Shown here piece by piece: positions 3,886-38,335 of a DNA stretch of 64,000 nucleotides (positions are counted from its first letter, which is position 1; every line of letters begins with the position of its first letter). A model generated the notes under the pieces. The model saw nothing but the letters and a program-made list of their open reading frames with translations. It searched no databases and was not told the origin of the DNA. The position numbers were made by a program, and so were the translations under genes. This stretch comes from an uncultured Bacilli bacterium (lineage in GTDB: Bacteria > Bacillota_I > Bacilli_A > RFN20 > CAG-826). Location of the stretch: positions 10,833 to 74,832 of the forward strand of contig CANQQL010000001.1 of NCBI GenBank assembly GCA_947625975.1, given 5' to 3'.

Positions 3886-3901
3886 AAAACTTATTAAGCA
3901 A

Positions 3902-7655: not shown

Positions 7656-7820
7656 AAAAGAAAAGGAGAAAATATTAATTATGAAAACTTATATCAAACC
7701 TACTGTAGAAATCGAATCTATTATGATGCAAGATGTTATTTTGTCATCAATAGCAATTAATGATTCAGAAAAAGACTTCGAAGATTGCGATGAAGTTTTA
7801 TAAAGGAAATAGATAAAATT

Positions 7821-11894: not shown

Positions 11895-13058
11895 ATGCGT
11901 AAGTTTTCGATTTTTTGCTTATCTGCTTTTTTGATGCTAGGAGGATGTTTAGTTTCTTGTGACGAAACCGAACCAAGCGTCGTTAGTACTAATAATAGTG
12001 CAAAAGTACGTGAGGGCGATGTTTGCATTGATCTAGTAATTACTCAAATGCCAAAAAAACTCGAATACAAATCAGGTGAGAGATTCTCTCCTTTAGGATT
12101 AAAGTTTGATGCTGTTTATCAAAATGGTTTTGATGGTGATAAAGGACTAGAAGCTGGCGATCTTGATGGATGGACTCCATCTGGACCATTGACTTCAAAT
12201 GATAAGACAGTAAAACTTAAATTTGAGGGATTTGAAAAAGAGATTACTATCTCTGTTGAAGAAAAAGAATTGCTTGGTGTAGAAATAACGCGCGTGCCTG
12301 ATGTTAAGTCGTATTCATTTGGTGATCTTTTAAATTTAACTGGACTCGTTGTTCGTGCAACATATGAAGAAGGAGTTGATGAAAACGAGCAAAATTATGT
12401 AGTAAAAGATAACAAAGGCAAAGTTTATGTAAACGGCACTATTTTAGATGAAGCAAATCCAGAGCTAGAATTATTTGTAAGTGTAACTTCCAAAGGAAAA
12501 ACTTATTCTGATTCCTTTAAAATTGGTGTTTATTCCGGTTTATCTGTTCAAGCAGAAGATATCATCAAAGATGGTAATTTCCCTACAGACAAATCTTATA
12601 CAACTGTAAACGAAGATTATAGTGGATATTATGAATCTAAAGATGATTGCAATTTCACGGGTACTGGCTATATCGGTACAATAGGCAAAAATTTAGAATT
12701 GAACTTCTATATATATTCAAATGTGGAAATTAAAAATGCAAGACTAGTGTTAATTGCCTCCTCTACATGTCAAGGTAATGGAAGGATGGAAGATATGAAG
12801 TTTAATGATTGTTTCTCAGCATTTATTGGAGAAGACAATACAAAACTTAATGTAGATGATAGCGTAGTTATACCTGGTTTAGAATATCCTGCGGAAGGTA
12901 TGGGTAGCAAATGGACCAATTGGGCAGATGCAGAATTTGGCACAATTAACTTAGTAAAAGGATTTAATAAGGTAAGAATTGTGTGTGTAAATACCATCTT
13001 AGATGCATCAAATTATGGTCGTACCCCTAATGTTGATAGATTGGATATAAGATTTTAA
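11895..13058 (+). CDS. lipoprotein with two Ig-like (Big-type) domains and a C-terminal beta-sandwich domain
   Basis: Lipobox GGCLVSC. ITQMPKKLEYKSGERFSPLGLKFDAVYQNG and EITRVPDVKSYSFGDLLNLTGLVVRATYEEG match the bacterial Ig-like domain pattern. Confidence 0.65.
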   Translation: MRKFSIFCLSAFLMLGGCLVSCDETEPSVVSTNNSAKVREGDVCIDLVITQMPKKLEYKSGERFSPLGLKFDAVYQNGFDGDKGLEAGDLDGWTPSGPLTSNDKTVKLKFEGFEKEITISVEEKELLGVEITRVPDVKSYSFGDLLNLTGLVVRATYEEGVDENEQNYVVKDNKGKVYVNGTILDEANPELELFVSVTSKGKTYSDSFKIGVYSGLSVQAEDIIKDGNFPTDKSYTTVNEDYSGYYESKDDCNFTGTGYIGTIGKNLELNFYIYSNVEIKNARLVLIASSTCQGNGRMEDMKFNDCFSAFIGEDNTKLNVDDSVVIPGLEYPAEGMGSKWTNWADAEFGTINLVKGFNKVRIVCVNTILDASNYGRTPNVDRLDIRF

Positions 13059-19383: not shown

Positions 19384-20811
19384 ATGAATAAGAAAACTAT
19401 TGTTGCACTTGCGTGTATGGCTTTACTCACAGGTCTAACATCTTGTGATAAAGGTGGTTCAAGTACAAATAATTCAGGAGATAGGTCGACACCAACATAT
19501 GTCGACCAGGATCCATATGTTATGAGTATTGAAATAATTTCTGCACCTAAAAAATTAGTGTATTTTGCTGGAGAATTTTTTGAGGCATCAGGTTTAAGAT
19601 TCAACGCTGTTTGGAATATTGATGGGGAAGAAGAACTCATTGAAGACATGACTGCTTCTGATTGTGAATATTCTCCAAGAGGCCGAGCTTTAACTGTTGA
19701 AGATAAAAAAGTTGTGTTTAATATTGGTGGATATGAATTTTCTTTTGATATAACTGTAAATGATGCCGTAAATATTGAAGAAAAATATGGCAATGCAAAG
19801 AAACAATATCTTCAAAATGGTACAGGAAGCATGTCTTTTAATGATAATGTACGTGGATATTATTATGAAATGGAAAATGCAACAAGTTTAAGTGATAATA
19901 TTCGGATTGCCGATGATATTGTTGCATCAGGAGGAAAATATATTTCTTATTTCAATCCTAATGAAGAAGTAATGTTTTCGATAAATTCAAGTGTCGAAGT
20001 TGATACTTTAATGATGCTTTCTGGTGCGATGGAAAATCGTGTTGAAGTTATGTTAACTAGTGCGTTTGAAATAACTTATGGAACAAATTTAGACGATTTA
20101 TCTAATAAAGTAGAAACATATTATTTTAGTTTTACAGGCACTGGTCAATGGAATATATTTAAAGAATTTAATGTCGGTGAGATTCATTTAGAAGAAGGAA
20201 TAAATTATATTAAGATTAAATCGTTAAGGGCAATAAATTACGATTTTATGTCTCTTGTTAACGTATACGATGAGTCTCGCGATAGCGGTGATATTGATGA
20301 TAAGGAAATAGATCTTGAAGAGAAATATGGCACACCAACTAAAAATCAATTATTAGATGGTACAAATAATATGAAATTTGATGATTCCGTTACTGGATAT
20401 TACTACGAGGCAGAGAGTGCTCAATTAAGTGATGGCATTACTTTAGAAACTGGATCAATGTCTGGTGGACAAGGTATCGGAAGATTTAGAAATGGAGAAA
20501 CAATGACGTTTTCTATTATCTCTGACGTAGAAACTGATGCGTTAGTCATTTTATCATTGACTAGATGGAATGATGGAGATTTGTCAATGAGCGATGCATT
20601 CTTAGGAGAATATGGTACTGATTTAGAGAATTTAACAAAATCAATTAATACATTCTCCCGTACAATTCATAATCATCAAAGTTGGTCGGCATATCAAGAA
20701 TATAACGTTGGAGAAGTTCATTTAGGTCAAGGTGTTAATTATATTAAATTTACGGCGTATCAGGCCGTAAACGTTGATTATATGTGTTTGGTTAATCCGC
20801 TCATTTCGTAA
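19384..20811 (+). CDS. lipoprotein: Ig-like domain plus two CBM6/CBM35-like repeats
   Basis: Lipobox LTSC. ISAPKKLVYFAGEFFEASGLRFNAVWNIDGEE is an Ig-like segment. Two YYYE(M/A)E repeats, with the last one about 80% nt-identical to the last repeat of the 7821-9533 gene. Confidence 0.7.
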   Translation: MNKKTIVALACMALLTGLTSCDKGGSSTNNSGDRSTPTYVDQDPYVMSIEIISAPKKLVYFAGEFFEASGLRFNAVWNIDGEEELIEDMTASDCEYSPRGRALTVEDKKVVFNIGGYEFSFDITVNDAVNIEEKYGNAKKQYLQNGTGSMSFNDNVRGYYYEMENATSLSDNIRIADDIVASGGKYISYFNPNEEVMFSINSSVEVDTLMMLSGAMENRVEVMLTSAFEITYGTNLDDLSNKVETYYFSFTGTGQWNIFKEFNVGEIHLEEGINYIKIKSLRAINYDFMSLVNVYDESRDSGDIDDKEIDLEEKYGTPTKNQLLDGTNNMKFDDSVTGYYYEAESAQLSDGITLETGSMSGGQGIGRFRNGETMTFSIISDVETDALVILSLTRWNDGDLSMSDAFLGEYGTDLENLTKSINTFSRTIHNHQSWSAYQEYNVGEVHLGQGVNYIKFTAYQAVNVDYMCLVNPLIS

Positions 20812-20826
20812 TAGTGAGGTGTCAAT

Positions 20827-23800
20827 ATGAAGAAACTAACAAAAGGAAATATATTTACACTAGTAGCTTTTGCCGTTATTCTTGTGGGAGTGGCTATAGG
20901 CAATTACGAATGCTATATTCATTCTACCGAAATTACAACTCATTTAATCGGAACGGGTGTTGTGATTGATTCAGAAAAGGCTCAAAACGCTTTACTAGAT
21001 GGTGATGAGCTAGTAGAAAAAATTGCCGCAGAAGGTATTGTAATGCTAAAAAATGATAACGTTCTACCTTTAAGTGTGGATAAAGATAAAGGTTATAATG
21101 TTAACTTATTTGGAGTCGGATCTACTGATGATGGGTTTGCCTATACTGGCGTAGGTGGAAGCGGTGTTGCCACAATCATAAGTGAGGATATTTTAAATAG
21201 TGATGGCACTATTAAATATAAGCATAATAGAGTTACTCTAAAAGAAGGTTTAGAACAAGCTGGTTTTAAAGTAAATACTACATTATTAGACAAATATAAA
21301 GATGGAAATCCAGATCCTTCGTTTTATAGCACGGACGATAGTGTTTTAAAAAGTGCCAAAGAATATTCTGATACGGCTATTATTACAATTACAAGACAAA
21401 CAGGAGAAAATTATAAAACTAGTGAATTAGTTGGCGATGTGGATAACGGATTACAAATTACAAGTAAAGAACAGGCAATAATTGACTATGTTTGTGATAA
21501 TTATGATAAGGTAATTATTTTAATAAATTCAACAAACACAATGGAAATGGGATATTTGCAAAATCCTAAAATTAAGGCGTGTCTTAATGTTGGAGTACCA
21601 GGTCAATCTGGAACAAGAGCAATTGGAAAGATTTTATCAGGAGATGTAAATCCTTCTGGTAAATTAGTAGATACTATTCCTTATGATACTACACAAGACC
21701 CTACTTGGGCGAATGCGATTCGAGAGGGTGGAGGAAATGGTAAAAACCAAATCTTCTATGCCGAAGATATTTATATAGGTTATAAATGGTATGAAACAGC
21801 GGATAAAGAAGGCTACTTTAACTCTGTACAAAACGACTATGGTGAAGGTTATGATGGAGTTGTTCAATATCCGTTTGGATATGGATTAAGCTACACTGAT
21901 TTTGAGTGGACACTTAAGAGTGCTGGTTTTGAAGTAGATGGAATAAAGACAGAATTGTCAAAAAGCAATATTTTGACAGATAAAAAAGCTGTCATCAATC
22001 TTGAAGTAGAAGTTAAAAACACTGGTACTGTGGCAGGAAAAGATGTTGTACAGGTATATGTGAATGCACCTTATTATAAAGGAGAGATAGAAAAACCATA
22101 TATTCGTCTAGTTAATTTTGGCAAAACTTCAATTTTAGAGCCAAATCAAACTGAAACTTTATCAATTTCTTTTGATATATACGACTTTGCATCTTACGAC
22201 TGTTATGATGCTAATAACAATGGGATTAGTGGTTGGGAACTTGATCCAGGTGATTATTGTCTTAAATTAATGACAGATGCACATCACCAATCAAATGTTG
22301 AAGATATTACTTTTGTCGTTCCGAGTGCTGAATCAGATACAGGCAGAAAAGGATTTTTGTATCGCTTCGATAATGATTCTAAGGGCTATATAAAAAACAG
22401 ATTTACTGGTGAAAGTGCGGAAGCTGGTGTCCCTATTGATGGAAGTAGTTTTGATCAAGACCCTGTTGTTTATTTATCAAGAAATGACTTTAGCAGTACA
22501 TTTCCTAAAACAAAAACAAAAAATAGAACTGAGTCAATTGTTGCGGATACATTTATAAATTATTATTATAAAGGTTATGATGATCAAAGTGATTTAGTTG
22601 CTCCAATTTTAAATAGAAACAGCGAAGAAATGCTATATTTATATACTTTGGAAGATGGCTCGAAGGCTTCATTAAATGACTTAGAAGGGACAGGAAAAAC
22701 TGTTGTTCCAAACGAAGAGTTAATCTTAGAATTGGGAGAAAATTATAAGAGCGAAAAATGGAATGAGTTATTGTCGCAAATGTCAATAACAGATATTAAC
22801 AACTTTATTTCGAGTGCTGGATTTGGGACAAAACCTATTGAAAGCATCGGGAAACCAAATTTGCTTGATTATGATGGAAGTTGTGGATTTAACCATAAAA
22901 TGGCTAATACTTATGTCAGCAATGCTTGGACTGGATATGCTGGAGAATTTGTTTTAGCCCAAACATATAATGTTGATTTAGCATTGCAAGTTGGACGTGT
23001 TATGGGTGCGGAAGCAAAAGTTACTGGTGGAATGACTGGTATTTACGCTCCTTGTGTTAACTTACACCGTACTCCTTATAATACAAGAAACTATGAGGCT
23101 TATAGTGAGGATGGTTTACTTTCTGGTTATATTGCTGCTAATGTTATTTATGGTGCTAAAACTAATGGCTTGTCTTGTTATATCAAACATTTTGCCCTAT
23201 CAGAACCTGGCTGGAATCCCAATGATTTAGCGACATGGTTAACTGAACAAAACTTAAGAGAAAACTATTTAAAACCATTTGAAATTGCAGTGAAAAAAGC
23301 TGAAGTGAATGCTGTAATGAGCGCATTTAATTGTGTTGGTGCAGTAAGATGCTGTAATAGTTATTCCTTACTTACAGAAATCTTAAGAAAAGAATGGGGC
23401 TTTAAAGGCTCAGTAATAACAGATTATAATATGGGAGAAATTTCTCAACACGTACGTGCTGGCAATGACTTGCACTTAAATCCTAATACAACTGTTATGA
23501 ATTGGATTAATGAAAAGAGTGTTGGAGATGTTTATAGTGGATATTTAGCAGTTAAAAACTCATTATTTACCTATTGTAATACGTATTATACAGCAAAAAC
23601 TTATGATCCATCTGCATCATTGGGAGTTTCCAAACGTGTTGAGCAATTCGTTTGGTGGATTCCTGTATTAATTTTCGCTGATTTATTAGTAGTCGGTTCA
23701 ATTGCGTTCTGGTTATTTAGAATGTTTAAAACGCCTAAGACAACGACTGATATAAATATTATTGCGACGGGAGATACTAAAAAGAAGAACAGGAAGAATG

Positions 23801-27700: not shown

Positions 27701-28159
27701 TTAAATTTTAACATTTGGGAATTGGATTAATACTGATTCACGATCCTTTAAATTTTTGCATCTTTTAAGCATTTCGTCTAACAATTTTTGCTTTTTGTCT
27801 AAAATTAGATAGACCGCAACGCCACGATCAGTTACGAAAAGTAAAATATTGTTTTTTCTTGACCAATTTTCATCAATATAGATTATTTTGCTATATTCGT
27901 AGACATACTCTTTGGTTAATTTCTTTTGCGAAAGATATTTTTTTTCTAAAGTATAATAACTACATTTTAAAGTAATAATAAAATAAACTAAAGTAATGAT
28001 TGCCCAGCCGGCAAATATAATATAATCTTGCTTTGGAAGTGGCCAAGTAAAACTTCCATCAAGAGTCAAATAAAATAAAGCTAGAAGAAGAATAGAAAGA
28101 AGAAAAAACCATAAAAGGGTTTTTTTCATATTCGGGAATATTTTCACTTTAATCACCAT
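27701..28159 (-). CDS. small two-TM membrane protein with a bacterial-PH-like soluble domain (putative)
   Basis: 152-aa ORF with two hydrophobic helices and a roughly 90-aa basic C-terminal domain. No clear SD; the real start may be the internal Met at 28129. Confidence 0.4.
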   Translation of the reverse strand: MVIKVKIFPNMKKTLLWFFLLSILLLALFYLTLDGSFTWPLPKQDYIIFAGWAIITLVYFIITLKCSYYTLEKKYLSQKKLTKEYVYEYSKIIYIDENWSRKNNILLFVTDRGVAVYLILDKKQKLLDEMLKRCKNLKDRESVLIQFPNVKI

Positions 28160-28282
28160 TTAAAATTATATCACATTTGTAAAGTTACTAAAAGGAAAAT
28201 AGACACGAAATGTTTTGTAAATCATATTTACAACATTCTTTTAAATATGGTAAAATTAACATAGAATTTGGGAGGAGAAAAT

Positions 28283-29725
28283 ATGCGTTTGTTTGATGTA
28301 GTTCCTAGTAATTTTTTTTCAATCCTCTCTTCTAAAAACAAAGAAGTTTACGCAATGACTTTAAGCGTTCTTTATAAAAGTTTAGAAACTGAAGAGATGT
28401 CTATTAAAAAGGCGGATTTTTTACGTGTTTTAAAAGAAACGGCTACGGATTTAGTTATGAGCCTTGATTTAAGCGAAGAGGATACAGATGCTGATGCTTT
28501 AAATAACTCTAGCCTTCCTAGTAAGGTCGCATTTATTTTGCGAAGACTTGAGGAAACCGGTTGGATTGATATTCAGATTGATAGTGAAAATTTTGAAGAA
28601 TACATTATATTACCTTCCTATTCAATCAAAGTGCTATCGTCCTTAAAAGAAATTAGTGAAGAGCAAGAGGCAGCCTACAATTCATTAGTGCATTCGACAT
28701 ACAGTGAACTAAAACTTGAAGATGATAATCCGGATGATTTGATGTATGTAACTCTTTTAAGAGCATATGAAAATACCAAAAAGTTAAGAATTGAATTAGT
28801 AACTTTAGGTCATCAAATTAAAATATATCAACATCGTTTATCGAACCTATTTACTACGAATGCAGTGTTAGAAAATCATTTTGATGAATATAAGGTTAGA
28901 ATTTCTGATAAGTTATATCATCCCTTAAAAACATTTGACTCAATAACACGCTTTAAAAGACCAATAATGTCTATCTTACAAAAGTGGTTACGAGATGATA
29001 AAATTCGCGAAAAATTGGTTAGTCAGTCCCTACTTTGGCGAAAAGACCGCGATCATCAAAATGCGGAATCTGATTTGATTAATAAGATTAACTTTATCCA
29101 AGATATGTATGAGCAATTAAATACGATGATTAATGAGATTGATCAAAGTCATAGTGAATATACAAAATCCAGTGCCTCAAAAATTATTTATTTTAACAAT
29201 AACGATAAGACTATAAAGGGACATCTTGAAACAATATTTAAAGCTTACGCGAGGGCGAATGCGGAGGTTAATGATGGCAAAGGATATAAGGACTTAAGAT
29301 TTATCTTATCTTCGATGCAAGATTCTTTGCTTTTTCATGAACAAGGTTACATTGATCCAGAATCTATAACACTGCCAATTATCAGGCAGTATCGTGAAAT
29401 TGGTGAGCCATTACCAATTGTTAACAATTTTGAAGAAGCCGGCGATTTGATAATGCAAAACTTTTTAGACCAAACACGTAATGTTTTTACAGATGCTCGA
29501 GTTATGGAATTTATGGAAAGAGCTTTTGGTGATTCTGATATTTTAAATGTGGAAGAAATACCGCTACCGGATTATGATGCGTTTATTTTATTGATTTTAG
29601 CAACTTTAAAACGTAATGATGACGATTGCTTTTATGAAGTAGATTATGACAATAGCGAACATATTTTATCGCAAGGATACATCTTGCCTAAGCTTGTTTT
29701 TAGACGAAAGGAGAGAGTGGAATAA
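28283..29725 (+). CDS. condensin-complex kleisin-like subunit (MksF/JetA-like, putative), first gene of the SMC-like operon
   Basis: 480 aa from ATG 28283 (SD GGAGGAG 5 nt upstream). Acidic, helical, with a winged-helix-like N-terminal region (ILRRLEETGWI). Stop overlaps the next start (TAATG). Assignment rests on size and order relative to the SMC-like ATPase. Confidence 0.45.
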   Translation: MRLFDVVPSNFFSILSSKNKEVYAMTLSVLYKSLETEEMSIKKADFLRVLKETATDLVMSLDLSEEDTDADALNNSSLPSKVAFILRRLEETGWIDIQIDSENFEEYIILPSYSIKVLSSLKEISEEQEAAYNSLVHSTYSELKLEDDNPDDLMYVTLLRAYENTKKLRIELVTLGHQIKIYQHRLSNLFTTNAVLENHFDEYKVRISDKLYHPLKTFDSITRFKRPIMSILQKWLRDDKIREKLVSQSLLWRKDRDHQNAESDLINKINFIQDMYEQLNTMINEIDQSHSEYTKSSASKIIYFNNNDKTIKGHLETIFKAYARANAEVNDGKGYKDLRFILSSMQDSLLFHEQGYIDPESITLPIIRQYREIGEPLPIVNNFEEAGDLIMQNFLDQTRNVFTDARVMEFMERAFGDSDILNVEEIPLPDYDAFILLILATLKRNDDDCFYEVDYDNSEHILSQGYILPKLVFRRKERVE

Positions 29726-30354
29726 TGTTTGAAACGGAATTTGAAAAACTTAGTAATTCTGAGCAAAGTGAATTTTCAAGAGTAGTCAACACTTTGATGC
29801 TTCGCTCTTTTATAGTAAGAGATATTTTTGATAGTAAAGAAAAAGCCATGAGAATCAATAATGACTACCGCTTTATCGAACGCCATTTTGATTTAATAAA
29901 TGACTATTTGAAATACACAAATTGGGTTATGGAAAAAGATGTTTTAAATGGTGTTGTGGCTCTTTTTAATATGAATGAACAAAATCGCTTAAGAATTGAT
30001 CGTGAAACATCCTTGTTGCTTTTTGTTTTAAGACTAATATATGAGACGGAAAAAAATGAGTCTGCTCAAACAGGAGAATCAATATATATTACCACTCCAA
30101 CTCTTATCAAAACTATGATCGATCATGGTATTACCATGTCTGGAAAAAGAATGAGTGGCAGACTTTTTGCGAAATCTTTAAGATTTTTGGCAAATCATAA
30201 TATCATTGCTAAAGTTAGTGGATCTTATGATGAAGGAAATGTTGCCTTCTATATCTTGCCAAGTATCATTTTTGCCGTTGATAACCAAAGAATTAAAGCT
30301 ATGTCTGAAGCTTTGGAACAAATGAAAGCGGGTGATGAAGATGAAAATGCTTAA
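29725..30354 (+). CDS. KITE-like small subunit (MksE/JetB-like, putative)
   Basis: 209 aa with an acidic C-terminal tail (EQMKAGDEDENA). Translationally coupled to both neighbours. Size and position are typical of MukE/MksE/JetB. Confidence 0.45.
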   Translation: MFETEFEKLSNSEQSEFSRVVNTLMLRSFIVRDIFDSKEKAMRINNDYRFIERHFDLINDYLKYTNWVMEKDVLNGVVALFNMNEQNRLRIDRETSLLLFVLRLIYETEKNESAQTGESIYITTPTLIKTMIDHGITMSGKRMSGRLFAKSLRFLANHNIIAKVSGSYDEGNVAFYILPSIIFAVDNQRIKAMSEALEQMKAGDEDENA

Positions 30355-33300
30355 GAAGATTAAGATTATAAATTGGCATTATTTTTGGAATGAAACAATC
30401 AATATAGAACCAATAGTTTTTTTAACTGGTTTGAATGCTTCGGGTAAATCCACCTTAATTGATGCTATGCAAATTATCTTGCTAGGTGATACATCAGGAC
30501 GCTTTTTCAATAAAGCGGCAAGTGAAAAATCTTCACGTACGCTGAAAGGTTATCTGCGTGGAGAACTAGGCGATGCTGAAGATGGTGGCTTCAAATATTT
30601 AAGAGATGGAAGATTCACATCTTATATTGCCTTAGAATTTTATGATGACTTAAATGATAAGTCTTTTACTTTAGGATGTGTTTTTGATTCTTTTGATGAT
30701 GGATCAGAAGAACATCGATATTTTTGTTTAGAAAATAAAATTCCCGAAAATGAATTTATAAAAGATAAAATACCGATGGACTATAAAACATTATCTCAAT
30801 TTTTCTTTTCAACCTATGGAGAAGGAAACTATCGCTTTGTTGATACTAACAAGCAATACCAAGACTTGTTAAAGAAAAAATTCGGAAACATCAAAGACAA
30901 ATATTTTTCTCTTTTCAAAAAAGCAGTTTCTTTTACACCGATTACCGATATTACAACTTTTATTACTGAGTATATTTGTGATGCACAAGGCAATATAAAT
31001 ATTGATTCGATGCAAGAAAATATTTTGCAATATAAACGTTTGGAAAACGAAGCGGCAATAATGGGAATGCGTGTTGATCGTTTAGTAGAAATTGAAAATT
31101 CATATAATGCCTATCAATCAAATTATCATAATATGTCCATCTTTGGTTATATCGTGCAGAAAGCGGAGTTACAAATTGAATTAAATCGCTTGAAGTCTTA
31201 TGAAGATTCAATTGCAAAAGCTAAAACACGACTATTGGAAATTGAAAATGAACTTGCAGAAATTGATGTTAATATTGCGGAATTAAATCGTCGTAAAACA
31301 CGTTTAATTCAAGATAAAGCAAGTAGTGATACTTATCGTTTGACAGACGAACTTCGTGAGCAAAAGAAAGAAGCCACGGAAAAATTAGCAAGTCTAAATC
31401 GTGATGCGCAAATCGTTAGACAAAATTTGGGCAAATACGCTAACGACTTTATTACTATAGCTTCTAAACTGGTAGATAAATTATCTAATCTTGATAAGGC
31501 ACTGTTTAATGATGACCGTGGCTATGAATTTAATGAATTATTAGTTTGTGCTACAAGGGTAGTGGAGACTTCGACAAATTTGCGTGATAATGAACTTCCG
31601 CACATTGAAACACTTTCAATTGAAACATTAAAGGAATGGCGTGATTCCTTGGCAAAGTTTAAACAAATGGTTTCGGCTCTGAGTGTTTCATTGAGTCGTA
31701 CAATCGCAACTTTTGATCGTGAAACAGGATTATTGCGACAACAAGAGGCTGAAATGCGTAATGGTGGGAAATCATATGATCGCACACTTGTTACAATTAA
31801 GAATGAGTTACAAAGAATTTTAACGGAGCGTCATGGGAAACCAATCGTTGTTTCGCTATTTGCGGATTTGATTGATATTAAATCGCAAACTTGGGTTAAC
31901 GCTGTCGAAGGTTTTTTACATTCACAAAAATTTAATTTATTTGTTGAGAGCAAATATTATTTTGAAGCTTATGAAATTTTACGTGACTTATTAGCTAAAA
32001 ATCATTTCTATAACACAACTTTGGTTGATCAAGAAAAAATTCTAGAAAGAAACTACACTTGCGAGAAAGGCTCGCTGGCAGAAGAAATTTTAACAGATCA
32101 TGCAGGAGCTCGTGGTTATGCAAATTTCTTAATTGGACGATTAATGAAATGCCGTAATATAAAAGAAGCACGAGAATCTATGAATGGTATTACTCCGGAA
32201 TGTGATATATATCGTAATTTCACTTTGGGAAAATTGAATCCTCGTAGTTATAGTCCGGCATATATTGGAAGAAGTGTCGGAGAATCGCAAATTGCTTTAA
32301 AACGTGCTGAAATTGATCGTAACAATCATTTAGTGGCTATTTTGCGAAATATTCATAACGACATTGCGGAAGCAAATACTTTCGAAATTATTAATACAAA
32401 TGAAATAAATAATACGATTGCGTTAATTGAAAACTCCCGTAATGTTGATGGCTTAAAGAATACTATCGCATATTTAGAAGAAGAATTATCTAAACATGAC
32501 GTTTCGCAAATTGAGTCTTTTGATCGTCGTATTAAAGATGTTGAAGATGACATACGTAATCTTGAAAATGAAAAAGAAGTCTTATTTGAAGAAAGGGGTC
32601 AGCTCAATTCACAAATTAAGTCATATACAGAAGAAAAAATTCCTGAGACTAAACTTAAATGCGAAGAGAAAACGAAAAACTTAGAAGAAAACTATGATCC
32701 TTTCGTGGTCGCGGAGGAAGCAGAACCGCTCTTTAATCAATTATTAATTGAAAACAAAACACCAATCGAGATGGTTAGTGAATATAATGTTAAATTTTCG
32801 CAAGCTCAATACAAAGCTCAAACGATATTTAACAATGTAACAAAACTTCGTCGGGAATATGTAAAAAATTATCATTTGTCCTATGATACTGAGCAAAAAG
32901 ACAATGAAGCATATCAAAACGAATTAGTTGAACTAAGAGAAATTAAACTTCCGCAATATCAAATTGCGATTACTGATGCATATAATAAAGCGACAAAGCA
33001 GTTCAAAGATGATTTTATCTCTCGCTTAAGAAGTGCAATTGAAAGTGTTGAAATACAAATTGAAGACTTAAATAATGCTTTATCACAAGCTATTTTCGGT
33101 AATGACTCTTATCGTTTTACTTGTAAACCAAGTCAATTATATCGCCGTTATTACGATATGATTAAAGATGATTTATTGCTTCAGGTTGGTGAAGATGAGT
33201 CAGCTTTTATCGAGAAATATTCAGATGTTATGAATGATTTGTTCAAACAAATTGTTGATGTCGGTGAGCATGGTGATAAAAATGCTCAATTGGCTGCTAA

Positions 33301-33748
33301 TGTGGAGAAATTTACAGATTATCGCTCTTATCTTGATTTTGATTTAATTGTTAAAAACAAAGAAGGACAAGAACAGCGCCTTTCGAAAATGATGAAGAAA
33401 AAATCCGGTGGTGAAACACAAACACCATTCTATATCGCGGTTTTGGCAAGCTTTGCACAGCTATATCGGGTTAATGATGCCGGCGAATTGGGTAATTCTA
33501 TGCGCCTTATCATCTTTGATGAAGCATTTTCTAAGATGGATCGAAGCCGTATCATTGAATCTGTACGATTATTGCGTAAGTTTGGACTACAAGCTATTTT
33601 ATCTGCACCATCCGATAAGATTGCCGATATTTCGGAATTAGTGGATGAGACCTTAGTAGTATTACATGATAAGAATACCTCACGTGTTCGTCTTTACGCC
33701 GAAGAAGAAAAAATAAAATTAAATAAGAAAGAAGTAGGCCAGTATTAA
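30341..33748 (+). CDS. SMC-like ATPase of the MukB/MksB/JetC type
   Basis: N-terminal Walker A LTGLNASGKSTLIDAMQIILLGD, then about 900 aa of heptad-rich coiled coil. C-terminal signature-like SGGETQTPFYIAVLASF, Walker B LIIFDEAFSKMD and D-loop. No Rad50/SbcC CxxC zinc hook. Start among the ATGs at 30335/30341/30347. Confidence 0.75.
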   Translation: MKMLKKIKIINWHYFWNETINIEPIVFLTGLNASGKSTLIDAMQIILLGDTSGRFFNKAASEKSSRTLKGYLRGELGDAEDGGFKYLRDGRFTSYIALEFYDDLNDKSFTLGCVFDSFDDGSEEHRYFCLENKIPENEFIKDKIPMDYKTLSQFFFSTYGEGNYRFVDTNKQYQDLLKKKFGNIKDKYFSLFKKAVSFTPITDITTFITEYICDAQGNINIDSMQENILQYKRLENEAAIMGMRVDRLVEIENSYNAYQSNYHNMSIFGYIVQKAELQIELNRLKSYEDSIAKAKTRLLEIENELAEIDVNIAELNRRKTRLIQDKASSDTYRLTDELREQKKEATEKLASLNRDAQIVRQNLGKYANDFITIASKLVDKLSNLDKALFNDDRGYEFNELLVCATRVVETSTNLRDNELPHIETLSIETLKEWRDSLAKFKQMVSALSVSLSRTIATFDRETGLLRQQEAEMRNGGKSYDRTLVTIKNELQRILTERHGKPIVVSLFADLIDIKSQTWVNAVEGFLHSQKFNLFVESKYYFEAYEILRDLLAKNHFYNTTLVDQEKILERNYTCEKGSLAEEILTDHAGARGYANFLIGRLMKCRNIKEARESMNGITPECDIYRNFTLGKLNPRSYSPAYIGRSVGESQIALKRAEIDRNNHLVAILRNIHNDIAEANTFEIINTNEINNTIALIENSRNVDGLKNTIAYLEEELSKHDVSQIESFDRRIKDVEDDIRNLENEKEVLFEERGQLNSQIKSYTEEKIPETKLKCEEKTKNLEENYDPFVVAEEAEPLFNQLLIENKTPIEMVSEYNVKFSQAQYKAQTIFNNVTKLRREYVKNYHLSYDTEQKDNEAYQNELVELREIKLPQYQIAITDAYNKATKQFKDDFISRLRSAIESVEIQIEDLNNALSQAIFGNDSYRFTCKPSQLYRRYYDMIKDDLLLQVGEDESAFIEKYSDVMNDLFKQIVDVGEHGDKNAQLAANVEKFTDYRSYLDFDLIVKNKEGQEQRLSKMMKKKSGGETQTPFYIAVLASFAQLYRVNDAGELGNSMRLIIFDEAFSKMDRSRIIESVRLLRKFGLQAILSAPSDKIADISELVDETLVVLHDKNTSRVRLYAEEEKIKLNKKEVGQY

Positions 33749-33774
33749 TCTGGTCTATTTGTTTATAAAAAGAT

Positions 33775-34677
33775 ATGGAATTAAGTTATGCAAGTAAAAA
33801 AATAAGAGGACAAAAACGTTTGACTATTTTCAAACTATTTTTAGTGGTTATGAAGTGGTTAATTATTATTTTATTATTAAATGGGATATTTTATTTATTA
33901 ATTAATCCATATTTTAAATTAGTCAATGATGTTATTGGGATTACCGTAGCTACGATTATTAGTATTTTACTGTTTATCATTGCCTCAATCATAAATTTAG
34001 TGATTAGTTATTATCGGTTTAATAAAAAATATAAAATTTTTTATCTGGAATTATTAAAAAATGAGGCAATGCTTGATGGTTTAGCTTTATTTGAAAATGA
34101 AAATAGTTTAAATACCGTCGAAATAAATACCATTGAAAGCTATGTGGGTATTCAAGATATTAAGGTAATAAAGGCTATGTCACAAACTAGTAGTTCCGCT
34201 TTCTTTGATCTTTATCAAATCAAATATGAAAATACGAATTTTGCAGTAATAATTAAGACTAAGATAGATTTTATGGGCAATGAACTGATTATACTTCGCA
34301 ATGATGACAGGAAAGGGAAACTATCCTATGATGAAAAAAAACTTAAACAATATGGAATAGGATTAAGCAATACTGAAAAATATTATGGCAGTAATTTTGC
34401 TTTATATGCGACTTTAGATAATCGTGTGTATAAGTGGATAAATAATCAGATATTGGAAGAATTGCAAAAGTTCGCAACATTTGTAAAGACATCGCTTTGT
34501 TTAACACTTTTAGATGATAATTTATTTATTTTTATTGACAATTGGGAAATGCAATTAGAAAAATCAATTTTTAACAAAGATGGTATATATATTATTGATG
34601 CCCAAATAGAAGCGTTAAAAAGATTACAAAGTTATATTGAAAGTATGACTTTATTAATAAATAAAAAGGAGGAATAA
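33775..34677 (+). CDS. two-TM membrane protein with about 210-aa cytoplasmic domain, unknown function
   Basis: TM helices LVVMKWLIIILLLNGIFYLLI and VIGITVATIISILLFIIASIINLVISYY. No Toprim or nuclease motifs recognised. Lies 26 nt after the SMC-like gene and 2 nt before glgC. Confidence 0.5.
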   Translation: MELSYASKKIRGQKRLTIFKLFLVVMKWLIIILLLNGIFYLLINPYFKLVNDVIGITVATIISILLFIIASIINLVISYYRFNKKYKIFYLELLKNEAMLDGLALFENENSLNTVEINTIESYVGIQDIKVIKAMSQTSSSAFFDLYQIKYENTNFAVIIKTKIDFMGNELIILRNDDRKGKLSYDEKKLKQYGIGLSNTEKYYGSNFALYATLDNRVYKWINNQILEELQKFATFVKTSLCLTLLDDNLFIFIDNWEMQLEKSIFNKDGIYIIDAQIEALKRLQSYIESMTLLINKKEE

Positions 34678-34679
34678 AA

Positions 34680-35795
34680 ATGGCAAAAGATCTAGTCGCA
34701 ATGATTTTAGCAGGTGGAAAAGGAACAAGACTTGAAGCATTAACCAAAAAAGTTGCAAAGCCGGCAGTTTATTACGGAGGTAGGTATCGCATTATTGATT
34801 TTCCTTTATCTAATTGTGCGAATTCAGGTATCGACACCGTTGGTGTTTTGACACAATATGAGTCTGTAGCGCTGAATAATTATATTGGTAACGGAGCAAA
34901 ATGGGGGTTAGATGGTAATCGTTCTTTAGCTTTAATTTTGCCACCACGTCAAAAAGAAGAAGGTGCTAATTGGTATCGGGGAACAGCAGATGCTATTGCC
35001 CAAAATATAGATTTTCTTGATTCGGTCAATCCGAAATACGTACTTATTTTATCCGGTGATCACATTTATAAAATGAACTATCGTCAGATGCTGGCCGATC
35101 ATTTAAAAAATAAAGCTGATGCCACGATTGCAGTTTTGAATGTTTCTCTTAAAGAAGCATCGCGCTTTGGCATAATGAATGTTAAAGAGGATATGTCAAT
35201 TTATGAATTTGAAGAGAAACCGGAAAAACCAAAATCTACATTAGCAAGCATGGGAATTTATATTTTTTCTTATAGTGTTTTAAAAGAAGCCTTAATTAAA
35301 GATTTAAATAATGAAAAGTCATCTCACGATTTCGGTAAAAATATAATTCCATATTTAATAGCTAAAAATAAACGAGTGTTTGCCTATCGTTTTGAAGGCT
35401 ATTGGAAAGATGTTGGCACTCTTGAATCTCTATGGGAAGCAAACATGGATTTACTTGATAACAAACAAGATGTTGGCTTGTATGATAATGATCATATGAA
35501 AATTTATTCGGAAGATACAAAGTCAGTGCCGGAATATATTGGAAAAAAAGGTATTGTGAAAAATTCTTTACTTAATCAAGGCTCAGTAGTACTTGGTAAA
35601 GTTGAACATAGCATTATCTCTAATGAGGCAATTATTGAGGAAGAAGCTGAAGTTATTGATTCGGTGGTCATGCCTGGTGCAAGAATTAAAAAAGGCGCAA
35701 AGGTTTATAGGACTATTGTGGGCGAAAATATGGTCATCGAAGAAAATGAAATAATCAATAAGGAAAAGAAAGGAATAGTACTGATTAAAGACTAA
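34680..35795 (+). CDS. glgC: glucose-1-phosphate adenylyltransferase
   Basis: MAKDLVAMILAGGKGTRLEALTKKVAKPAV and GTADAI motifs. Confidence 0.9.
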   Translation: MAKDLVAMILAGGKGTRLEALTKKVAKPAVYYGGRYRIIDFPLSNCANSGIDTVGVLTQYESVALNNYIGNGAKWGLDGNRSLALILPPRQKEEGANWYRGTADAIAQNIDFLDSVNPKYVLILSGDHIYKMNYRQMLADHLKNKADATIAVLNVSLKEASRFGIMNVKEDMSIYEFEEKPEKPKSTLASMGIYIFSYSVLKEALIKDLNNEKSSHDFGKNIIPYLIAKNKRVFAYRFEGYWKDVGTLESLWEANMDLLDNKQDVGLYDNDHMKIYSEDTKSVPEYIGKKGIVKNSLLNQGSVVLGKVEHSIISNEAIIEEEAEVIDSVVMPGARIKKGAKVYRTIVGENMVIEENEIINKEKKGIVLIKD

Positions 35796-35807
35796 GAGGT
35801 GAAGAAA

Positions 35808-36917
35808 ATGTATAAAGTTTTAGGTTATTGTAATTTGCATCATAGTGTGAAATTAGGACCATTGACGGAAGAAAGATCACTAGCGTCCACACCTTTTTTA
35901 GGTCGCTACGCTTTCATCGATTTTACTTTATCTAATTTTTCGAATTCCGGCATTGATCGCATAGGTATACTGGTAAAAGAACATCTGCGTTCTTTAGTCA
36001 AACATTTAGGTAGTTCAAACGCTTGGACAATTAATACAAAAATCGGTACAAAGGCCATCTTATACAATGAAAAAGATGCAAAAAATTCCCGTTATAATCA
36101 TGATGTAAATAACATCAAAGAAAATGACTGGTTAATTTTAAGAGAAAAAGCCGATTTTGTGGTAATTGCTCCTGTTCATTTTGTTATGGCCATTAACTAT
36201 CAAGAAGTAATTGATGAGCACGTAAAAAACGGTGCAGATATTACCATTGTTTATCAAAAAGTAGATAATGCAAAAACTCATTTTGAAACCTGTGATGTTC
36301 TCACTCTTTCCAATAATGTTATAACAAGCTTAAAAGAAAATAAATGTACTAAAGATAACGCTTATATTTCGCTTGAAACATATGTTATTAGCATGCAAAA
36401 GTTTGAAGAGTTAATTTATAAAATCAGTAAGATATCAGCTTTATATGAACTAAGAGATTTAATATTATATGCCATTCAAAATGAAAAAGTATACGGATTT
36501 GAACATAAAGGATATGTACGCTGCTTCGATACTTTAAACCATTATTTAGAATATTCATTAGAACTATTAGATTTTAAAACTCGGCAAAAATTGTTTTTGG
36601 AAAATTGGCCAATCTATACGATTACCAATGACACACCTCCGACCAAATATTTAAATAATGCCGATGTAAAAAATTCATTTATTTCCAATGGAGCAGTTAT
36701 TGACGGGAAAGTGGAAAATTCAATTTTATCCCGAGAAGTTATTGTTAAAGAAGGCGCTGTCATAAAAAATTCCATTATTTTAACTGATTGCGTTATTTCT
36801 TCCGATGCACATTTAGAATATGTCATAGAGGATAAATATTCTAAAGTTATGCGAGCAAAAGATATAAGAGGAAGTAAGGAAGATCCAATCTTTATCAAGC
36901 AAGGAGATGTTATATAA
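35808..36917 (+). CDS. glgD: glycogen biosynthesis protein GlgD (regulatory, adenylyltransferase-like)
   Basis: Paralogous to GlgC but lacks the GGxGxRL motif. Start chosen at ATG 35808 (RBS AGAGGTG). Confidence 0.75.
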   Translation: MYKVLGYCNLHHSVKLGPLTEERSLASTPFLGRYAFIDFTLSNFSNSGIDRIGILVKEHLRSLVKHLGSSNAWTINTKIGTKAILYNEKDAKNSRYNHDVNNIKENDWLILREKADFVVIAPVHFVMAINYQEVIDEHVKNGADITIVYQKVDNAKTHFETCDVLTLSNNVITSLKENKCTKDNAYISLETYVISMQKFEELIYKISKISALYELRDLILYAIQNEKVYGFEHKGYVRCFDTLNHYLEYSLELLDFKTRQKLFLENWPIYTITNDTPPTKYLNNADVKNSFISNGAVIDGKVENSILSREVIVKEGAVIKNSIILTDCVISSDAHLEYVIEDKYSKVMRAKDIRGSKEDPIFIKQGDVI

Positions 36918-38335
36918 TGAAAATAGTTATGGTAGCTTCTGAAGCTAATCCTTTGGCAAAAACAGGGGGTTTAGCCGATGTAGTGTATGCCCTATCTAAA
37001 GAGTTAGCTAAGAAACATGATATCAGTATTTTTATGCCATTTTATAAAATTTCAGAGCACAAGGCAAAGGAAGCAAAATTATTAAAAAATCTGACAATTT
37101 TTATGTCCTGGAGATGCATTAATACAAAGCTATATTTTCTAGAAATTGATGGCATAAAATATTACCTTATCAAATGTGATCAATATTTTAATCGTGATGC
37201 CTTATATGGCTATGAAGATGATATTGAAAGATTTGCTTATTTTACGATAGCGGTTAAACAAATAATGACAGATTTAAATATGCTTCCGGATATAATTCAT
37301 CTTCACGATTGGCAACCAGGCATGCTACCGGTACTTATTCGTGATGATAAAAATAATCAATTAAATCACGCAAAATTTGTTTTAACAATTCATAATCCGG
37401 CATTTAAAGGGTATTTTAATCCTTATTTTTTAGGCGATTTATACGGAATGGATGATAGACATTATATTGATGGATCAATTCGCTTTAAAGATTCAGTTTC
37501 GACATTAAAGAGTGCAATTATGTATGTTAATAAAGTTACCACAGTTTCGCCAAGCCATCGTAGTGAATTGCTTTATCAAGATATTTCGGATGGTTTAAAT
37601 GAGGTATTAAAATTTCGTCAGGATGATTTTATCGGAATCTTAAATGGAATTGACGATCATGAATTTAATCCACGTACCGATGATAAAATTTATGCCAACT
37701 TTGATTTAAGAAATTTTAAAAGCAAAAAAGCCTATAACAAAAAATGTTTGGAAGAAGAATTACATTTAAAAGTAGATGATGCTCCTTTATATGGAATGGT
37801 TTCACGTCTGACTTGGCAAAAGGGAATTGATATTTTACTTCCTACAATTCATGGATTATTAGCAAAGGGAAGAAAGGTGGTTATTCTTGGTTCTGGTGAA
37901 CGAAAGTATGAACAAGCCTTAGAAAATTTAAGACGTGAATTTCCCGATTGCCTTGCTATTTACCTTGGTTACAATGATGTTTTGGCGCATAATATATATG
38001 CTGCATCTGATTTCTTTTTAATGCCATCATTATTTGAGCCATGTGGTCTGTCTCAAATGATTGCACATCGTTATGGCACTCTTCCGATTATTCGAAGAGT
38101 TGGTGGGCTCCAAGATAGTGTAATTTCTTATGATGGACATAATATTGAGGTTGCGGATGGCTTTGGTTTTGATGAATATAGTGAATCCGGCCTATGGTGG
38201 ACATTTGATTGGTGTGAAAAAAATTATTATCAATCGGCGGTAATGCATCAACTTCGTAAGAATGCGATGCATGTTAATCACGATTGGAAAGTCGCGGCAC
38301 AAAAATACTTAAATATATATCGAGAAATTATTTAA
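36917..38335 (+). CDS. glgA: glycogen synthase (ADP-glucose type)
   Basis: MKIVMVASEANPLAKTGGLADVV N-terminal motif (KTGGL). 472 aa. Confidence 0.9.
   Translation: MKIVMVASEANPLAKTGGLADVVYALSKELAKKHDISIFMPFYKISEHKAKEAKLLKNLTIFMSWRCINTKLYFLEIDGIKYYLIKCDQYFNRDALYGYEDDIERFAYFTIAVKQIMTDLNMLPDIIHLHDWQPGMLPVLIRDDKNNQLNHAKFVLTIHNPAFKGYFNPYFLGDLYGMDDRHYIDGSIRFKDSVSTLKSAIMYVNKVTTVSPSHRSELLYQDISDGLNEVLKFRQDDFIGILNGIDDHEFNPRTDDKIYANFDLRNFKSKKAYNKKCLEEELHLKVDDAPLYGMVSRLTWQKGIDILLPTIHGLLAKGRKVVILGSGERKYEQALENLRREFPDCLAIYLGYNDVLAHNIYAASDFFLMPSLFEPCGLSQMIAHRYGTLPIIRRVGGLQDSVISYDGHNIEVADGFGFDEYSESGLWWTFDWCEKNYYQSAVMHQLRKNAMHVNHDWKVAAQKYLNIYREII

What the first reader, a model, noticed from the sequence alone, without database searches (positions are those of the whole stretch)
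28283..34677. Condensin-like (MksFEB/JetABC-type) three-gene module with no Toprim/JetD gene; a two-TM protein occupies the fourth position
Three translationally coupled genes (480 aa, 209 aa, 1138 aa) are joined by a TAATG overlap and a roughly 20-nt overlap. The third is an SMC/MukB-like ATPase with N-terminal Walker A, about 900 aa of coiled coil, and a C-terminal SGGE-type signature plus Walker B (FDEAF) and D-loop. It has no Rad50-type zinc hook, which fits the MukB/MksB/JetC type. The first two genes have the size and order of kleisin (MukF/MksF/JetA) and KITE (MukE/MksE/JetB) subunits. In Wadjet anti-plasmid systems a fourth gene, jetD (Toprim nuclease, about 400 aa), follows jetC. Here the next ORF is a 300-aa protein with two N-terminal TM helices and an unrecognisable soluble domain. 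So this is either a nuclease-less accessory Mks condensin or a Wadjet-like module with a non-canonical fourth component. It sits between a glycan-utilisation island and the glycogen operon, in addition to the presumed canonical SMC-ScpAB elsewhere. I see this as the best candidate for an undescribed system in the window.
Basis: partly seen in the sequence, partly recalled or inferred. Interest (0 to 1): 0.8.

Follow-up and report, generated by a model that had tools for sequence, protein, structure and literature searches.

The report
Nuclease-free Wadjet (JetABC) condensin operon
This is a real three-gene SMC "Wadjet-type" DNA-motor operon that has lost its DNA-cutting partner and is inherited like a housekeeping gene set in a group of uncultured gut Bacilli. 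A sister-species copy is already listed in a published catalogue, and the membrane protein behind it is an optional neighbour, not a replacement nuclease.

Summary
Window 28283-33748 encodes JetA, JetB and JetC of a type I Wadjet system (PADLOC E 9e-128, 1.5e-68 and 0), with no JetD in the window or within ±10 kb in 80 related species. The next ORF (33775-34677) is a two-TM DUF3137 protein.

The "undescribed system" reading does not hold. Bürmann et al. 2025 (PMC7617805, Data S1) already list the orthologous locus of a sister MAG (JetC 89% identical) as an "FEB" operon without MksG/JetD. In their tree it sits in a fully nuclease-less clade nested among FEBG systems.

- **Inheritance:** the locus is vertically inherited at a fixed core-genome position (rpmB … jetABC–glgCDA). 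It diverges in step with the glg genes (r 0.79-0.91) and is under strong purifying selection (dN/dS 0.02-0.09).
- **Fourth gene:** it belongs to a fast-evolving family present in only 18 of 74 species-level loci. It lies downstream of a conserved terminator-like hairpin at the jetC stop and 2 nt upstream of glgC. Its predicted fold resembles the membrane factor TtfA, not a nuclease.

Most likely function: an ATP-driven loop-extruding condensin used for chromosome organisation or non-cleaving DNA surveillance. Whether it replaces Smc-ScpAB could not be tested. It is a new member of a known kind, of modest interest.

The parts
27701..28159 (-). Divergently transcribed 152-aa two-TM protein. It is a conserved upstream neighbour of jetA and is not shown to be part of the system.
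   Evidence: No Pfam, PADLOC or NCBIfam family. A homolog (25-83% identity) sits at the same position next to jetA in most related loci. dN/dS 0.06-0.16.
28227..28256 (+). Promoter-like site upstream of jetA (TTTACA-18-TAAAAT with an extended -10 TG).
   Evidence: Consensus scan, 10/12 match. The scan found no more sites than in shuffled sequence, so this is weak evidence only.
28283..29725 (+). jetA (mksF), kleisin subunit, 480 aa.
   Evidence: Pfam PF18982 JetA E 4.3e-91; PADLOC JetA1 PDLC00449 E 9.2e-128 over residues 1-478. RBS GGGAGGAG. dN/dS 0.03-0.08.
29725..30354 (+). jetB (mksE), KITE subunit, 209 aa. TAATG overlap with jetA.
   Evidence: Pfam DUF4194 E 4.7e-16; PADLOC JetB1 PDLC00502 E 1.5e-68. 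Junction sequence. dN/dS 0.02-0.06.
30332..33748 (+). jetC (mksB), MukB-type SMC ATPase, 1138 aa from GTG 30332. The probable start is ATG 30341. It overlaps jetB by 14-23 nt.
   Evidence: PADLOC JetC1 PDLC00519 E=0, 1129 bits, full length; Pfam AAA_29, SbcC_Walker_B and weak MukB N-terminal. The best PDB sequence matches are JetC chains 9qxt and 8dk1-3. Walker A/B, signature and hinge are invariant in 13 homologs.
33728..33764 (+). Terminator- or attenuator-like hairpin spanning the jetC stop codon, followed by a T-rich tail.
   Evidence: RNA fold -16.5 kcal/mol, z -4.95, 0 of 200 shuffles as stable. Equivalent hairpins with a T-run follow jetC in relatives with JetC ≥57% identity. Two of seven stem pairs show compensatory changes. 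The simple terminator scan missed it.
33775..34677 (+). DUF3137-like two-TM membrane protein, 300 aa. This 'slot gene' between jetC and glgC is optional and fast-evolving, and is not a JetD substitute.
34680..38335 (+). glgC-glgD-glgA glycogen synthesis genes, the conserved downstream neighbours of jetABC.
   Evidence: Pfam NTP_transferase + Hexapep (GlgC, GlgD) and Glyco_transf_5 + Glycos_transf_1 (GlgA). They follow jetC directly in most of the 80 related genomes.

Best explanation
This is a nuclease-free type I Wadjet-group SMC complex (JetA kleisin, JetB KITE, JetC MukB-like ATPase). It derives from JetABCD systems of Bacillota by loss of jetD.

It has become a vertically inherited, core-genome operon in a clade of uncultured, low-GC, mostly gut-associated Bacilli. 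These MAGs are variously labelled Erysipelotrichales, Mollicutes, 'Coprobacillus CAG:826' or Onthovivens.

**Inferred mechanism**
- By homology, a JetA-bridged dimer of JetC dimers loads on DNA and extrudes loops using ATP. JetABC has been shown to do this in vitro without JetD.
- With no nuclease, the output cannot be plasmid cleavage.
- The most likely role is chromosome folding and segregation, as for MukBEF. A non-cleaving effect on small circular DNA is the alternative.

**The 300-aa ORF**
- It is a membrane-anchored protein whose soluble domain is probably cytoplasmic.
- It belongs to a fast-evolving DUF3137-like family.
- It occupies the slot between a jetC terminator/attenuator hairpin and glgC.
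- It is dispensable for JetABC in most relatives and groups at least as well with the glycogen genes.

**What is shown and what is inferred**
- Shown: gene identities, absence of JetD nearby, synteny, co-divergence, purifying selection, the hairpin, and the prior catalogue entry.
- Inferred: loop extrusion, the housekeeping role, and the membrane topology.
For: **Identity**
- Family matches; ATPase and hinge motifs invariant.

**No JetD**
- None in the window or within ±10 kb in 80 species-representative genomes. Positive controls: L096, L098 and L099.

**Already catalogued as nuclease-free**
- PMC7617805 Data S1 lists JAFLUZ010000005.1 as mksB 20292-23696, 'FEB', with no MksG. This equals my L005/L017, where JetC is 89% identical to the window's.
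- In their tree the clade {Erysipelotrichales, Erysipelotrichaceae, Clostridium sp. CAG:288, Treponema rectale} is all FEB with support 100. Its neighbours (Acidaminobacter, Fusibacter, Caldanaerovirga, Pseudoclostridium) are FEBG.

**Vertical, housekeeping-like behaviour**
- The order rsgA-rpe-…-rpmB(-)-TM gene(-)-jetABC-(slot)-glgCDA-…-asd-dapF holds in every context examined.
- Pairwise protein distances of JetC correlate with GlgC, GlgA and GlgD at r = 0.79, 0.83 and 0.91. GlgC against GlgA gives 0.87, with similar mean divergence.
- dN/dS is 0.02-0.09 for JetA/B/C, similar to GlgC.

**Mechanism**
- JetABC without JetD hydrolyses ATP and extrudes loops, and cleavage needs JetD (PMC10889018).
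- MukBEF and 'several other Wadjet group members' lack the nuclease (PMC7617805).

**Fourth gene**
-.
Against: - No complete genome of the clade could be scanned, so a distal jetD cannot be excluded. The presence or absence of Smc-ScpAB is also unknown.
- Vertical inheritance and purifying selection show the complex is useful. They do not show what it is used for, and a constitutive non-nucleolytic defence role fits equally well on that evidence.
- dS is saturated (about 2), so dN/dS values are approximate.
- The slot gene recurs at the same position in several deep lineages, so some functional link to JetABC is not excluded.
- There is no room for a promoter between the hairpin and the slot gene. 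Transcription of the slot gene and glgCDA may therefore depend on read-through from jetABC.
Confidence: 0.6

Rival explanations
1. It is a conventional anti-plasmid Wadjet system whose JetD nuclease is encoded elsewhere in the genome and acts in trans.
For: JetA, JetB and JetC match type I Wadjet models built for defence systems. JetD docks on the JetC head rather than being fused (10.1101/2023.11.03.565488), so action in trans is physically possible. Whole genomes could not be searched.
Against: - jetD is directly adjacent to jetC in the canonical systems seen here (L096, L098, L099).
- None lies within ±10 kb in 80 species.
- The authors of PMC7617805 checked neighbours of G-less operons by AlphaFold and classed this clade as nuclease-free.
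- The loss is fixed across a whole clade.
Confidence: 0.07
2. It is a non-nucleolytic defence or surveillance complex. JetABC still recognises small circular DNA by complete loop extrusion, then blocks its replication, segregation or transcription by stalling on it, without cutting.
For: JetABC without JetD loads on plasmids, extrudes them and stalls in a holding state. All motor motifs are conserved. Strong purifying selection is compatible with a constitutive immune role.
Against: No such activity has been shown for any Wadjet complex in the papers read. In reconstitution, no cleavage was seen without JetD (<1% of plasmids linearised). The fixed core-genome position and housekeeping-like co-divergence are unusual for defence genes.
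Confidence: 0.2
3. It is a four-component system in which the DUF3137-like membrane protein is the functional partner of JetABC, either as a membrane tether or as an alternative effector replacing JetD.
For: - A homologous two-TM gene occupies the position directly after jetC in several deep lineages.
- It remains behind jetC where glgCDA is replaced by other genes (L014).
- Its soluble domain is probably cytoplasmic (positive-inside reading of the sequence; inference).
- In Corynebacterium, MksBEFG is anchored at the poles through another protein (PMC10123090).
Against: - It is absent from 56 of 74 species-level loci that retain intact jetABC.
- It evolves 2-3 times faster than JetABC.
- It is separated from jetC by a conserved terminator-like hairpin and lies 2 nt from glgC.
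- In L019 it stays with glgC, not jetC.
- It has no PADLOC match.
- Its fold resembles TtfA and CCDC47, not a nuclease.
Confidence: 0.08
4. It is a decaying remnant of a Wadjet system that lost jetD and is on its way to pseudogenisation.
For: The nuclease has been lost.
Against: The reading frames are intact in about 80 species. dN/dS is 0.02-0.09. Catalytic motifs are invariant. JetC is 72% identical where the neighbouring slot protein has dropped to about 40%.
Confidence: 0.01

Closest known systems
Nuclease-free Wadjet-group 'FEB' operons catalogued by Bürmann et al., Cell 2025 (PMC7617805, Fig. S1A and Data S1), including Erysipelotrichales bacterium GCA_022508535.1
   Same: It is the same orthologous locus. 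The catalogue coordinates of JAFLUZ010000005.1 (mksB 20292-23696) equal my L005/L017, where JetC is 89% identical to the window's, in the same gene order and with no MksG/JetD. The clade is all-FEB in their tree.
   Different: The window comes from a different species of the clade. The paper lists the operon only in a table and gives no analysis of this clade's synteny, glg linkage, slot gene or function.
Type I Wadjet JetABCD (E. coli GF4-3 and P. aeruginosa PA14 complexes; PADLOC JetA1/B1/C1/D1)
   Same: The three motor subunits match the type I models over their full length. Gene order and the overlapping, translationally coupled starts are the same. The best PDB sequence hits are JetC chains.
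   Different: There is no jetD, so no Toprim nuclease and no plasmid cleavage (cleavage needs JetD). The context is the core genome rather than plasmids or defence islands.
MukBEF of Enterobacteria
   Same: It is a Wadjet/Mks-group SMC complex without a nuclease, vertically inherited, and used for chromosome folding (PMC7617805). JetC gives a weak Pfam MukB N-terminal match.
   Different: Sequence relatedness is only distant. The MukBEF partners (MatP, Topo IV, AcpP) were not examined. Whether Smc-ScpAB has been replaced here, as in MukBEF lineages (PMC10586767), is unknown.
DUF3137 (PF11335) and the TtfA fold (PDB 6t84), for the fourth gene
   Different: Sequence identity to TtfA is 9%, so this is a fold-level resemblance only. 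No transporter partner is nearby. More divergent members of the slot family fall below the Pfam threshold.

Membership tests
Wadjet type I (JetABCD) | JetA kleisin (PF18982/DUF5716) | tested here: met
   Pfam E 4.3e-91; PADLOC JetA1 E 9.2e-128.
Wadjet type I (JetABCD) | JetB KITE subunit (DUF4194) | tested here: met
   Pfam E 4.7e-16; PADLOC JetB1 E 1.5e-68.
Wadjet type I (JetABCD) | JetC MukB-like SMC ATPase with intact Walker A/B, signature motif and hinge | tested here: met
   PADLOC JetC1 E=0, 1129 bits. Motifs are invariant in 13 homologs. The best PDB matches are JetC chains.
Wadjet type I (JetABCD) | JetD Toprim nuclease (DUF2220/DUF3322) encoded with jetABC | tested here: not met
   None in the 64-kb window by Pfam, PADLOC or tblastn. 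None within ±10 kb in 80 related genomes. Probes were validated on L096, L098 and L099. The rest of the genome was not searchable.
Wadjet type I (JetABCD) | Restriction of circular plasmids by cleavage | not testable with these tools
   Requires transformation or cleavage assays. In reconstituted systems, cleavage requires JetD.
Nuclease-free Wadjet/Mks-group condensins ('FEB' operons, PMC7617805) | mksF-mksE-mksB operon with Walker motifs and no MksG next to it | tested here: met
   The orthologous locus is listed as FEB in Data S1, in an all-FEB clade with support 100.
Housekeeping condensin (MukBEF-like role) | Vertical inheritance in the core genome at a housekeeping-like evolutionary rate | tested here: met
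   Conserved synteny. Distance correlations 0.79-0.91 with the glg genes. dN/dS 0.02-0.09.
Housekeeping condensin (MukBEF-like role) | Replaces Smc-ScpAB, or is required for chromosome segregation | not testable with these tools
This needs whole-genome HMM searches and genetics.
DUF3137 (PF11335), fourth gene | Score above the Pfam gathering threshold | tested here: met
   29.3 bits against 26.1, residues 170-295. Divergent clade members score below threshold. A source names the P0004 homolog 'DUF3137 domain-containing protein'.
Fourth subunit of a Wadjet-like system | Co-occurs with jetABC across relatives | tested here: not met
   Present in 18 and absent in 56 of 74 species-level loci with intact jetABC.

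The most novel reading that the evidence does not exclude
In this clade of reduced-genome Bacilli, a type I Wadjet motor was domesticated after losing its nuclease and now serves as the principal chromosome-organising condensin. It may have replaced Smc-ScpAB. That would be a second, independent MukBEF-like takeover, this time in Gram-positive bacteria. In some lineages the DUF3137-like membrane protein would act as an accessory membrane tether.
Probability: 0.15. Interest if true: 0.7.

Novelty: new member of a known kind. Interest (0 to 1): 0.3.

Why it matters
Wadjet complexes are studied mainly as plasmid-cutting immune systems, and MukBEF is the one well-understood nuclease-free relative that folds chromosomes. 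Here a type I Wadjet motor is kept without its nuclease across a whole clade, at a fixed core-genome position, and evolving like a housekeeping gene. That makes it a natural case for asking how an SMC immune motor is repurposed, or what it does when it cannot cut.

The practical value is limited. The nuclease-free status of this clade is already recorded, the organisms are uncultured, and the key question of whether Smc-ScpAB is absent remains open.

Tried and rejected
**Tools or searches that gave little**
- PDB sequence searches with JetA and JetB found nothing, and JetC matched only distantly. Family assignment therefore rests on the HMMs.
- A single profile-profile comparison of the window's DUF3137 group with the L039-group slot ORFs was inconclusive (E 0.02). 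Iterative HMM search against 1,437 decoy ORFs later linked them. The post-inclusion E-values there are circular, so only the pre-inclusion values count: 2e-14, 6e-4, 3e-3, 1e-11 and 3e-6.
- The broadened slot-family profile found no members outside the clade, so the wider DUF3137 context could not be examined.
- The viral-contig scan gave one locus only. It was useful as a JetD positive control.
- Extending beyond the window ends returned only short contigs.
- No Smc-like ORF lies in any flank.

**Readings I dropped**
- The consensus terminator scan reported no plus-strand terminator in the operon. That first led me to read jetABC-slot-glgCDA as one uninterrupted unit. Folding then showed a conserved hairpin at the jetC stop, so I withdrew that reading.
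- Defence island: rejected on synteny.
- Decaying remnant: rejected on selection.
- Slot gene as nuclease: rejected on fold and on the absence of any PADLOC hit.
Full report
**1. What is in the sequence**

The window is uniformly low in G+C, about 31%. At 28283-33748 it carries three tightly packed plus-strand genes of 480, 209 and 1138 aa.
- jetA starts at an ATG behind a GGGAGGAG ribosome-binding site.
- jetA and jetB share one base in a TAATG junction.
- jetC overlaps jetB by 14-23 nt, depending on whether GTG 30332 or ATG 30341 is the start. Homologs align from ATG 30341.

A 300-aa ORF follows at 33775-34677, and then glgC, glgD and glgA.

**2. Identity of the three genes**

| Protein | Pfam | PADLOC |
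|---|---|---|
| 480 aa | JetA, E 4e-91 | JetA1, E 9e-128 |
| 209 aa | DUF4194, 5e-16 | JetB1, 1.5e-68 |
| 1138 aa | AAA_29, SbcC_Walker_B, weak MukB N-terminal | JetC1, full length, E=0, 1129 bits |

In a 13-sequence alignment spanning 52-90% identity, Walker A, the SGGE signature, Walker B (D1063, E1064) and a long hinge block are invariant. The nearest solved proteins by sequence are JetC chains. These are genuine JetA, JetB and JetC of the type I Wadjet (MksFEB) kind.

**3. JetD is absent nearby**

- Pfam scans of all 26 window ORFs of ≥300 aa (six also scanned with PADLOC) and of nine shorter ORFs found no DUF2220/DUF3322/Toprim protein.
- I took two annotated JetD proteins from canonical jetABCD loci on Cohnella and Rossellomorea plasmids. 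The Cohnella one scores 3.5e-125 on PADLOC JetD1.
- tblastn with both probes against the window and all fetched loci found only themselves and each other at 1e-36.
- They also found a JetD directly behind a JetC fragment that is 51% identical to the window's, in an IMG/VR contig (L099, 1e-31). The probes would therefore have detected a JetD next to this kind of JetC.

**4. Comparative genomics**

*Synteny around the 300-aa gene.* Exact and homologous copies of the 300-aa protein exist only in about 40 clusters, one of them named as from an Erysipelotrichales MAG. In every context examined, with slot-protein identity from 38% to 100%, the order is:

pknB-rsgA-rpe-two small genes-rpmB(-)-small TM gene(-)-jetA-jetB-jetC-slot gene-glgCDA-amidotransferase(-)-asd-dapF.

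*A wider clade.* JetC homologs of 48-90% identity occur in many uncultured Bacilli and Mollicutes-type MAGs. A scan of species-representative genomes returned 80 loci.
- In nearly all of them jetABC is followed by glgC-glgD-glgA.
- In 56 of 74 informative loci, glgC begins within 200 nt of the jetC stop, often within 10-50 nt.
- In the window, a 23-kb glycan-utilisation block (4602-27280) has been inserted between rpmB (3934-4128, minus strand) and the small TM gene, relative to its relatives.

*Co-divergence and selection.*
- Pairwise protein distances of JetC correlate with those of GlgC, GlgA and GlgD at r = 0.79, 0.83 and 0.91. GlgC against GlgA gives 0.87.
- Mean divergences are JetC 0.44, GlgC 0.35, GlgA 0.47 and GlgD 0.54.
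- dN/dS against two relatives is 0.02-0.09 for JetA/B/C and 0.04-0.07 for GlgC. Synonymous sites are saturated, so these values are approximate.

This is a vertically inherited core-genome operon under strong constraint. It is not a mobile defence island.

**5. Prior knowledge**

Bürmann et al. [quoted passage not shown] They map nuclease loss on their tree (Fig. S1A). They also verified absence by AlphaFold inspection of the genes flanking G-less operons.
- Their Data S1 lists [quoted passage not shown] with no MksG.
- Converting coordinates shows this is exactly my L005/L017, whose JetC is 89% identical to the window's.
- In their tree this MksB forms a clade with support 100 together with Erysipelotrichaceae bacterium, Clostridium sp. 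CAG:288 and Treponema rectale. All four are FEB.
- The adjacent tips (Acidaminobacter, Fusibacter, Caldanaerovirga, Pseudoclostridium) are FEBG.

The nuclease-free state is therefore derived, and it is already on public record. The clade is not discussed individually in the paper. A phrase search of the held library found no other paper on nuclease-less Wadjet operons. Other JetD-less type I modules also exist, for example on the Agathobacter rectalis 251-kb replicon. Some Erysipelotrichales carry complete jetABCD (Bulleidia, PMC12786226).

**6. The fourth gene**

*Family and fold.*
- It passes the Pfam DUF3137 threshold marginally and has no PADLOC match.
- An AF2 model built from 14 homologs (pLDDT 74) shows two long TM helices followed by an α/β domain.
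- Lys/Arg-rich segments lie before TM1 and after TM2, which suggests that both termini and the soluble domain are cytoplasmic. This is an inference from the sequence.

*Distribution.*
- By BLAST the gene appeared confined to the window's subclade. However, other lineages carry 282-305-aa two-TM ORFs in the same slot.
- A single profile comparison was inconclusive.
- An iterative HMM search over all 1,437 ORFs of the fetched loci recruited only slot ORFs. Pre-inclusion E-values were L020 2e-14, L037 6e-4, L019 3e-3, L034 1e-11 and L043 3e-6, followed by the L039 group. No unrelated ORF was recruited.
- The slot gene is therefore one old, fast-evolving family (dN/dS 0.09-0.25). It is retained in 18 of 74 species-level loci and lost in the rest.
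- A database search with the broadened profile found no members elsewhere.

*Which neighbour it belongs with.*
- It is always packed against the downstream glucan-metabolism gene. The gap to glgC is 2 nt in the window, and in relatives the two genes overlap or lie a few nt apart.
- In L019 two foreign genes separate it from jetC while it stays 15 nt from glgC.
- In L014, where glgCDA is replaced by a GH13 gene set, it stays behind jetC.

**7. A boundary after jetC**

The simple terminator scan found nothing. Folding the jetC 3' end gave a different picture.
- A hairpin spans the stop codon at 33728-33764 (-16.5 kcal/mol, z -4.95), followed by a T-rich tail.
- Relatives with JetC ≥57% identity carry hairpins plus T-runs at the same place, built from different sequences.
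- Within the window's subclade, 2 of 7 stem pairs show compensatory changes.
- In the more distant gut lineages the hairpin is absent, and the glgC ribosome-binding site abuts the jetC stop.

In the window's branch, jetABC therefore has its own 3' terminator or attenuator. The slot gene and glgCDA lie beyond it with no room for a promoter, so they probably depend on read-through or on a promoter inside jetC. This last step is an inference.

**8. Most likely function**

- Shown in the literature: JetABC without JetD hydrolyses ATP, extrudes loops and stalls on circular DNA, and cleavage requires JetD (PMC10889018). JetD docks onto the JetC head.
- Shown here: the motor is intact, conserved and vertically inherited, and it has no nuclease nearby.
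- Inferred: the complex works as a loop-extruding condensin for chromosome organisation and segregation, analogous to MukBEF.

My estimate of about 0.6 covers the package as a whole. The identity part is near certain; the housekeeping role is roughly even odds. The rival explanations are:
- non-cutting surveillance of small circular DNA (0.2);
- a four-part system with the membrane protein (0.08);
- a JetD acting in trans from elsewhere in the genome (0.07);
- a decaying remnant (0.01, contradicted by the selection data).

**9. Verdict**

The locus is a new member of an already recorded kind, the nuclease-free Wadjet-group FEB operons.

The modest new points are:
- fixed core-genome synteny with the glycogen genes across about 80 species;
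- the housekeeping-like evolutionary rate;
- the optional DUF3137-like slot gene;
- the conserved hairpin after jetC.

The open question that would raise interest is whether these genomes lack Smc-ScpAB. I could not test it.

Noticed in passing
window 4602-27280: A ~23-kb glycan-utilisation block is inserted between rpmB (3934-4128, minus strand) and the 152-aa TM gene; the close relatives examined (L005-L014) lack it at that position. It holds three ~1000-aa GH3-family proteins with permuted domain order and N-terminal hydrophobic anchors, a GHKL sensor kinase (10423-11760) with a likely regulator upstream, a DUF4886 protein and two carboxylesterases. Four large ORFs have no Pfam family (7821-9533, 11895-13058, 16717-19371, 19384-20811).
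   Followed up: partly
window 27701-28159 (-), and the same position in most related loci: A 152-aa two-TM protein with no family assignment is transcribed divergently from jetA. It is conserved there at 25-83% identity across the clade. It could simply be synteny, or it could be linked to jetABC.
   Followed up: partly
window 33775-33801; alignment A2: The first five residues (MELSY) of the DUF3137-like protein are invariant, and residues 6-9 nearly so, across homologs down to 36% identity, while the TM helices that follow vary freely. This region lies about 10 nt after the jetC hairpin, so the constraint might act on the RNA or translation-initiation level rather than on the protein.
   Followed up: no
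PMC7617805 tree and Data S1: Treponema rectale, a spirochaete, carries an FEB operon inside the otherwise Bacilli-type nuclease-free clade, as sister to Clostridium sp. CAG:288. This suggests a horizontal transfer of the already nuclease-less module between gut or rumen bacteria.
   Followed up: no
L097 (Agathobacter rectalis NZ_CP143948.1, 251-kb replicon) 2732-8324: Another jetABC without jetD. Here jetC is followed directly by a gamma-carbonic anhydrase and an MFS transporter. JetC is only 24% identical to the window's, so this may be a separate nuclease loss.
   Followed up: no
L019 5956-8582: In one lake-water Bacillota MAG, two genes have been inserted between jetC and the slot gene: a membrane protein and a protein resembling an AMP-dependent ligase (not scanned against any family library). 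This is the only case where the slot gene is separated from jetC. The membrane-protein ORF contains a run of masked or unknown residues.
   Followed up: no
L014, L016 and L018, downstream of the slot gene: In one sublineage glgCDA is missing. In L014 it is replaced by a GH13 alpha-amylase-family gene plus three genes without Pfam hits, directly behind the slot gene; L016 and L018 were not examined further. The slot gene is thus followed by some alpha-glucan gene set in the loci examined.
   Followed up: no
window 2613-3227: The 204-aa ORF after rpe gives a weak PADLOC match to HEC-01B (E 3e-5, 22 bits). It has no Pfam hit and is part of the conserved core synteny, so the match is probably fortuitous.
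   Followed up: no
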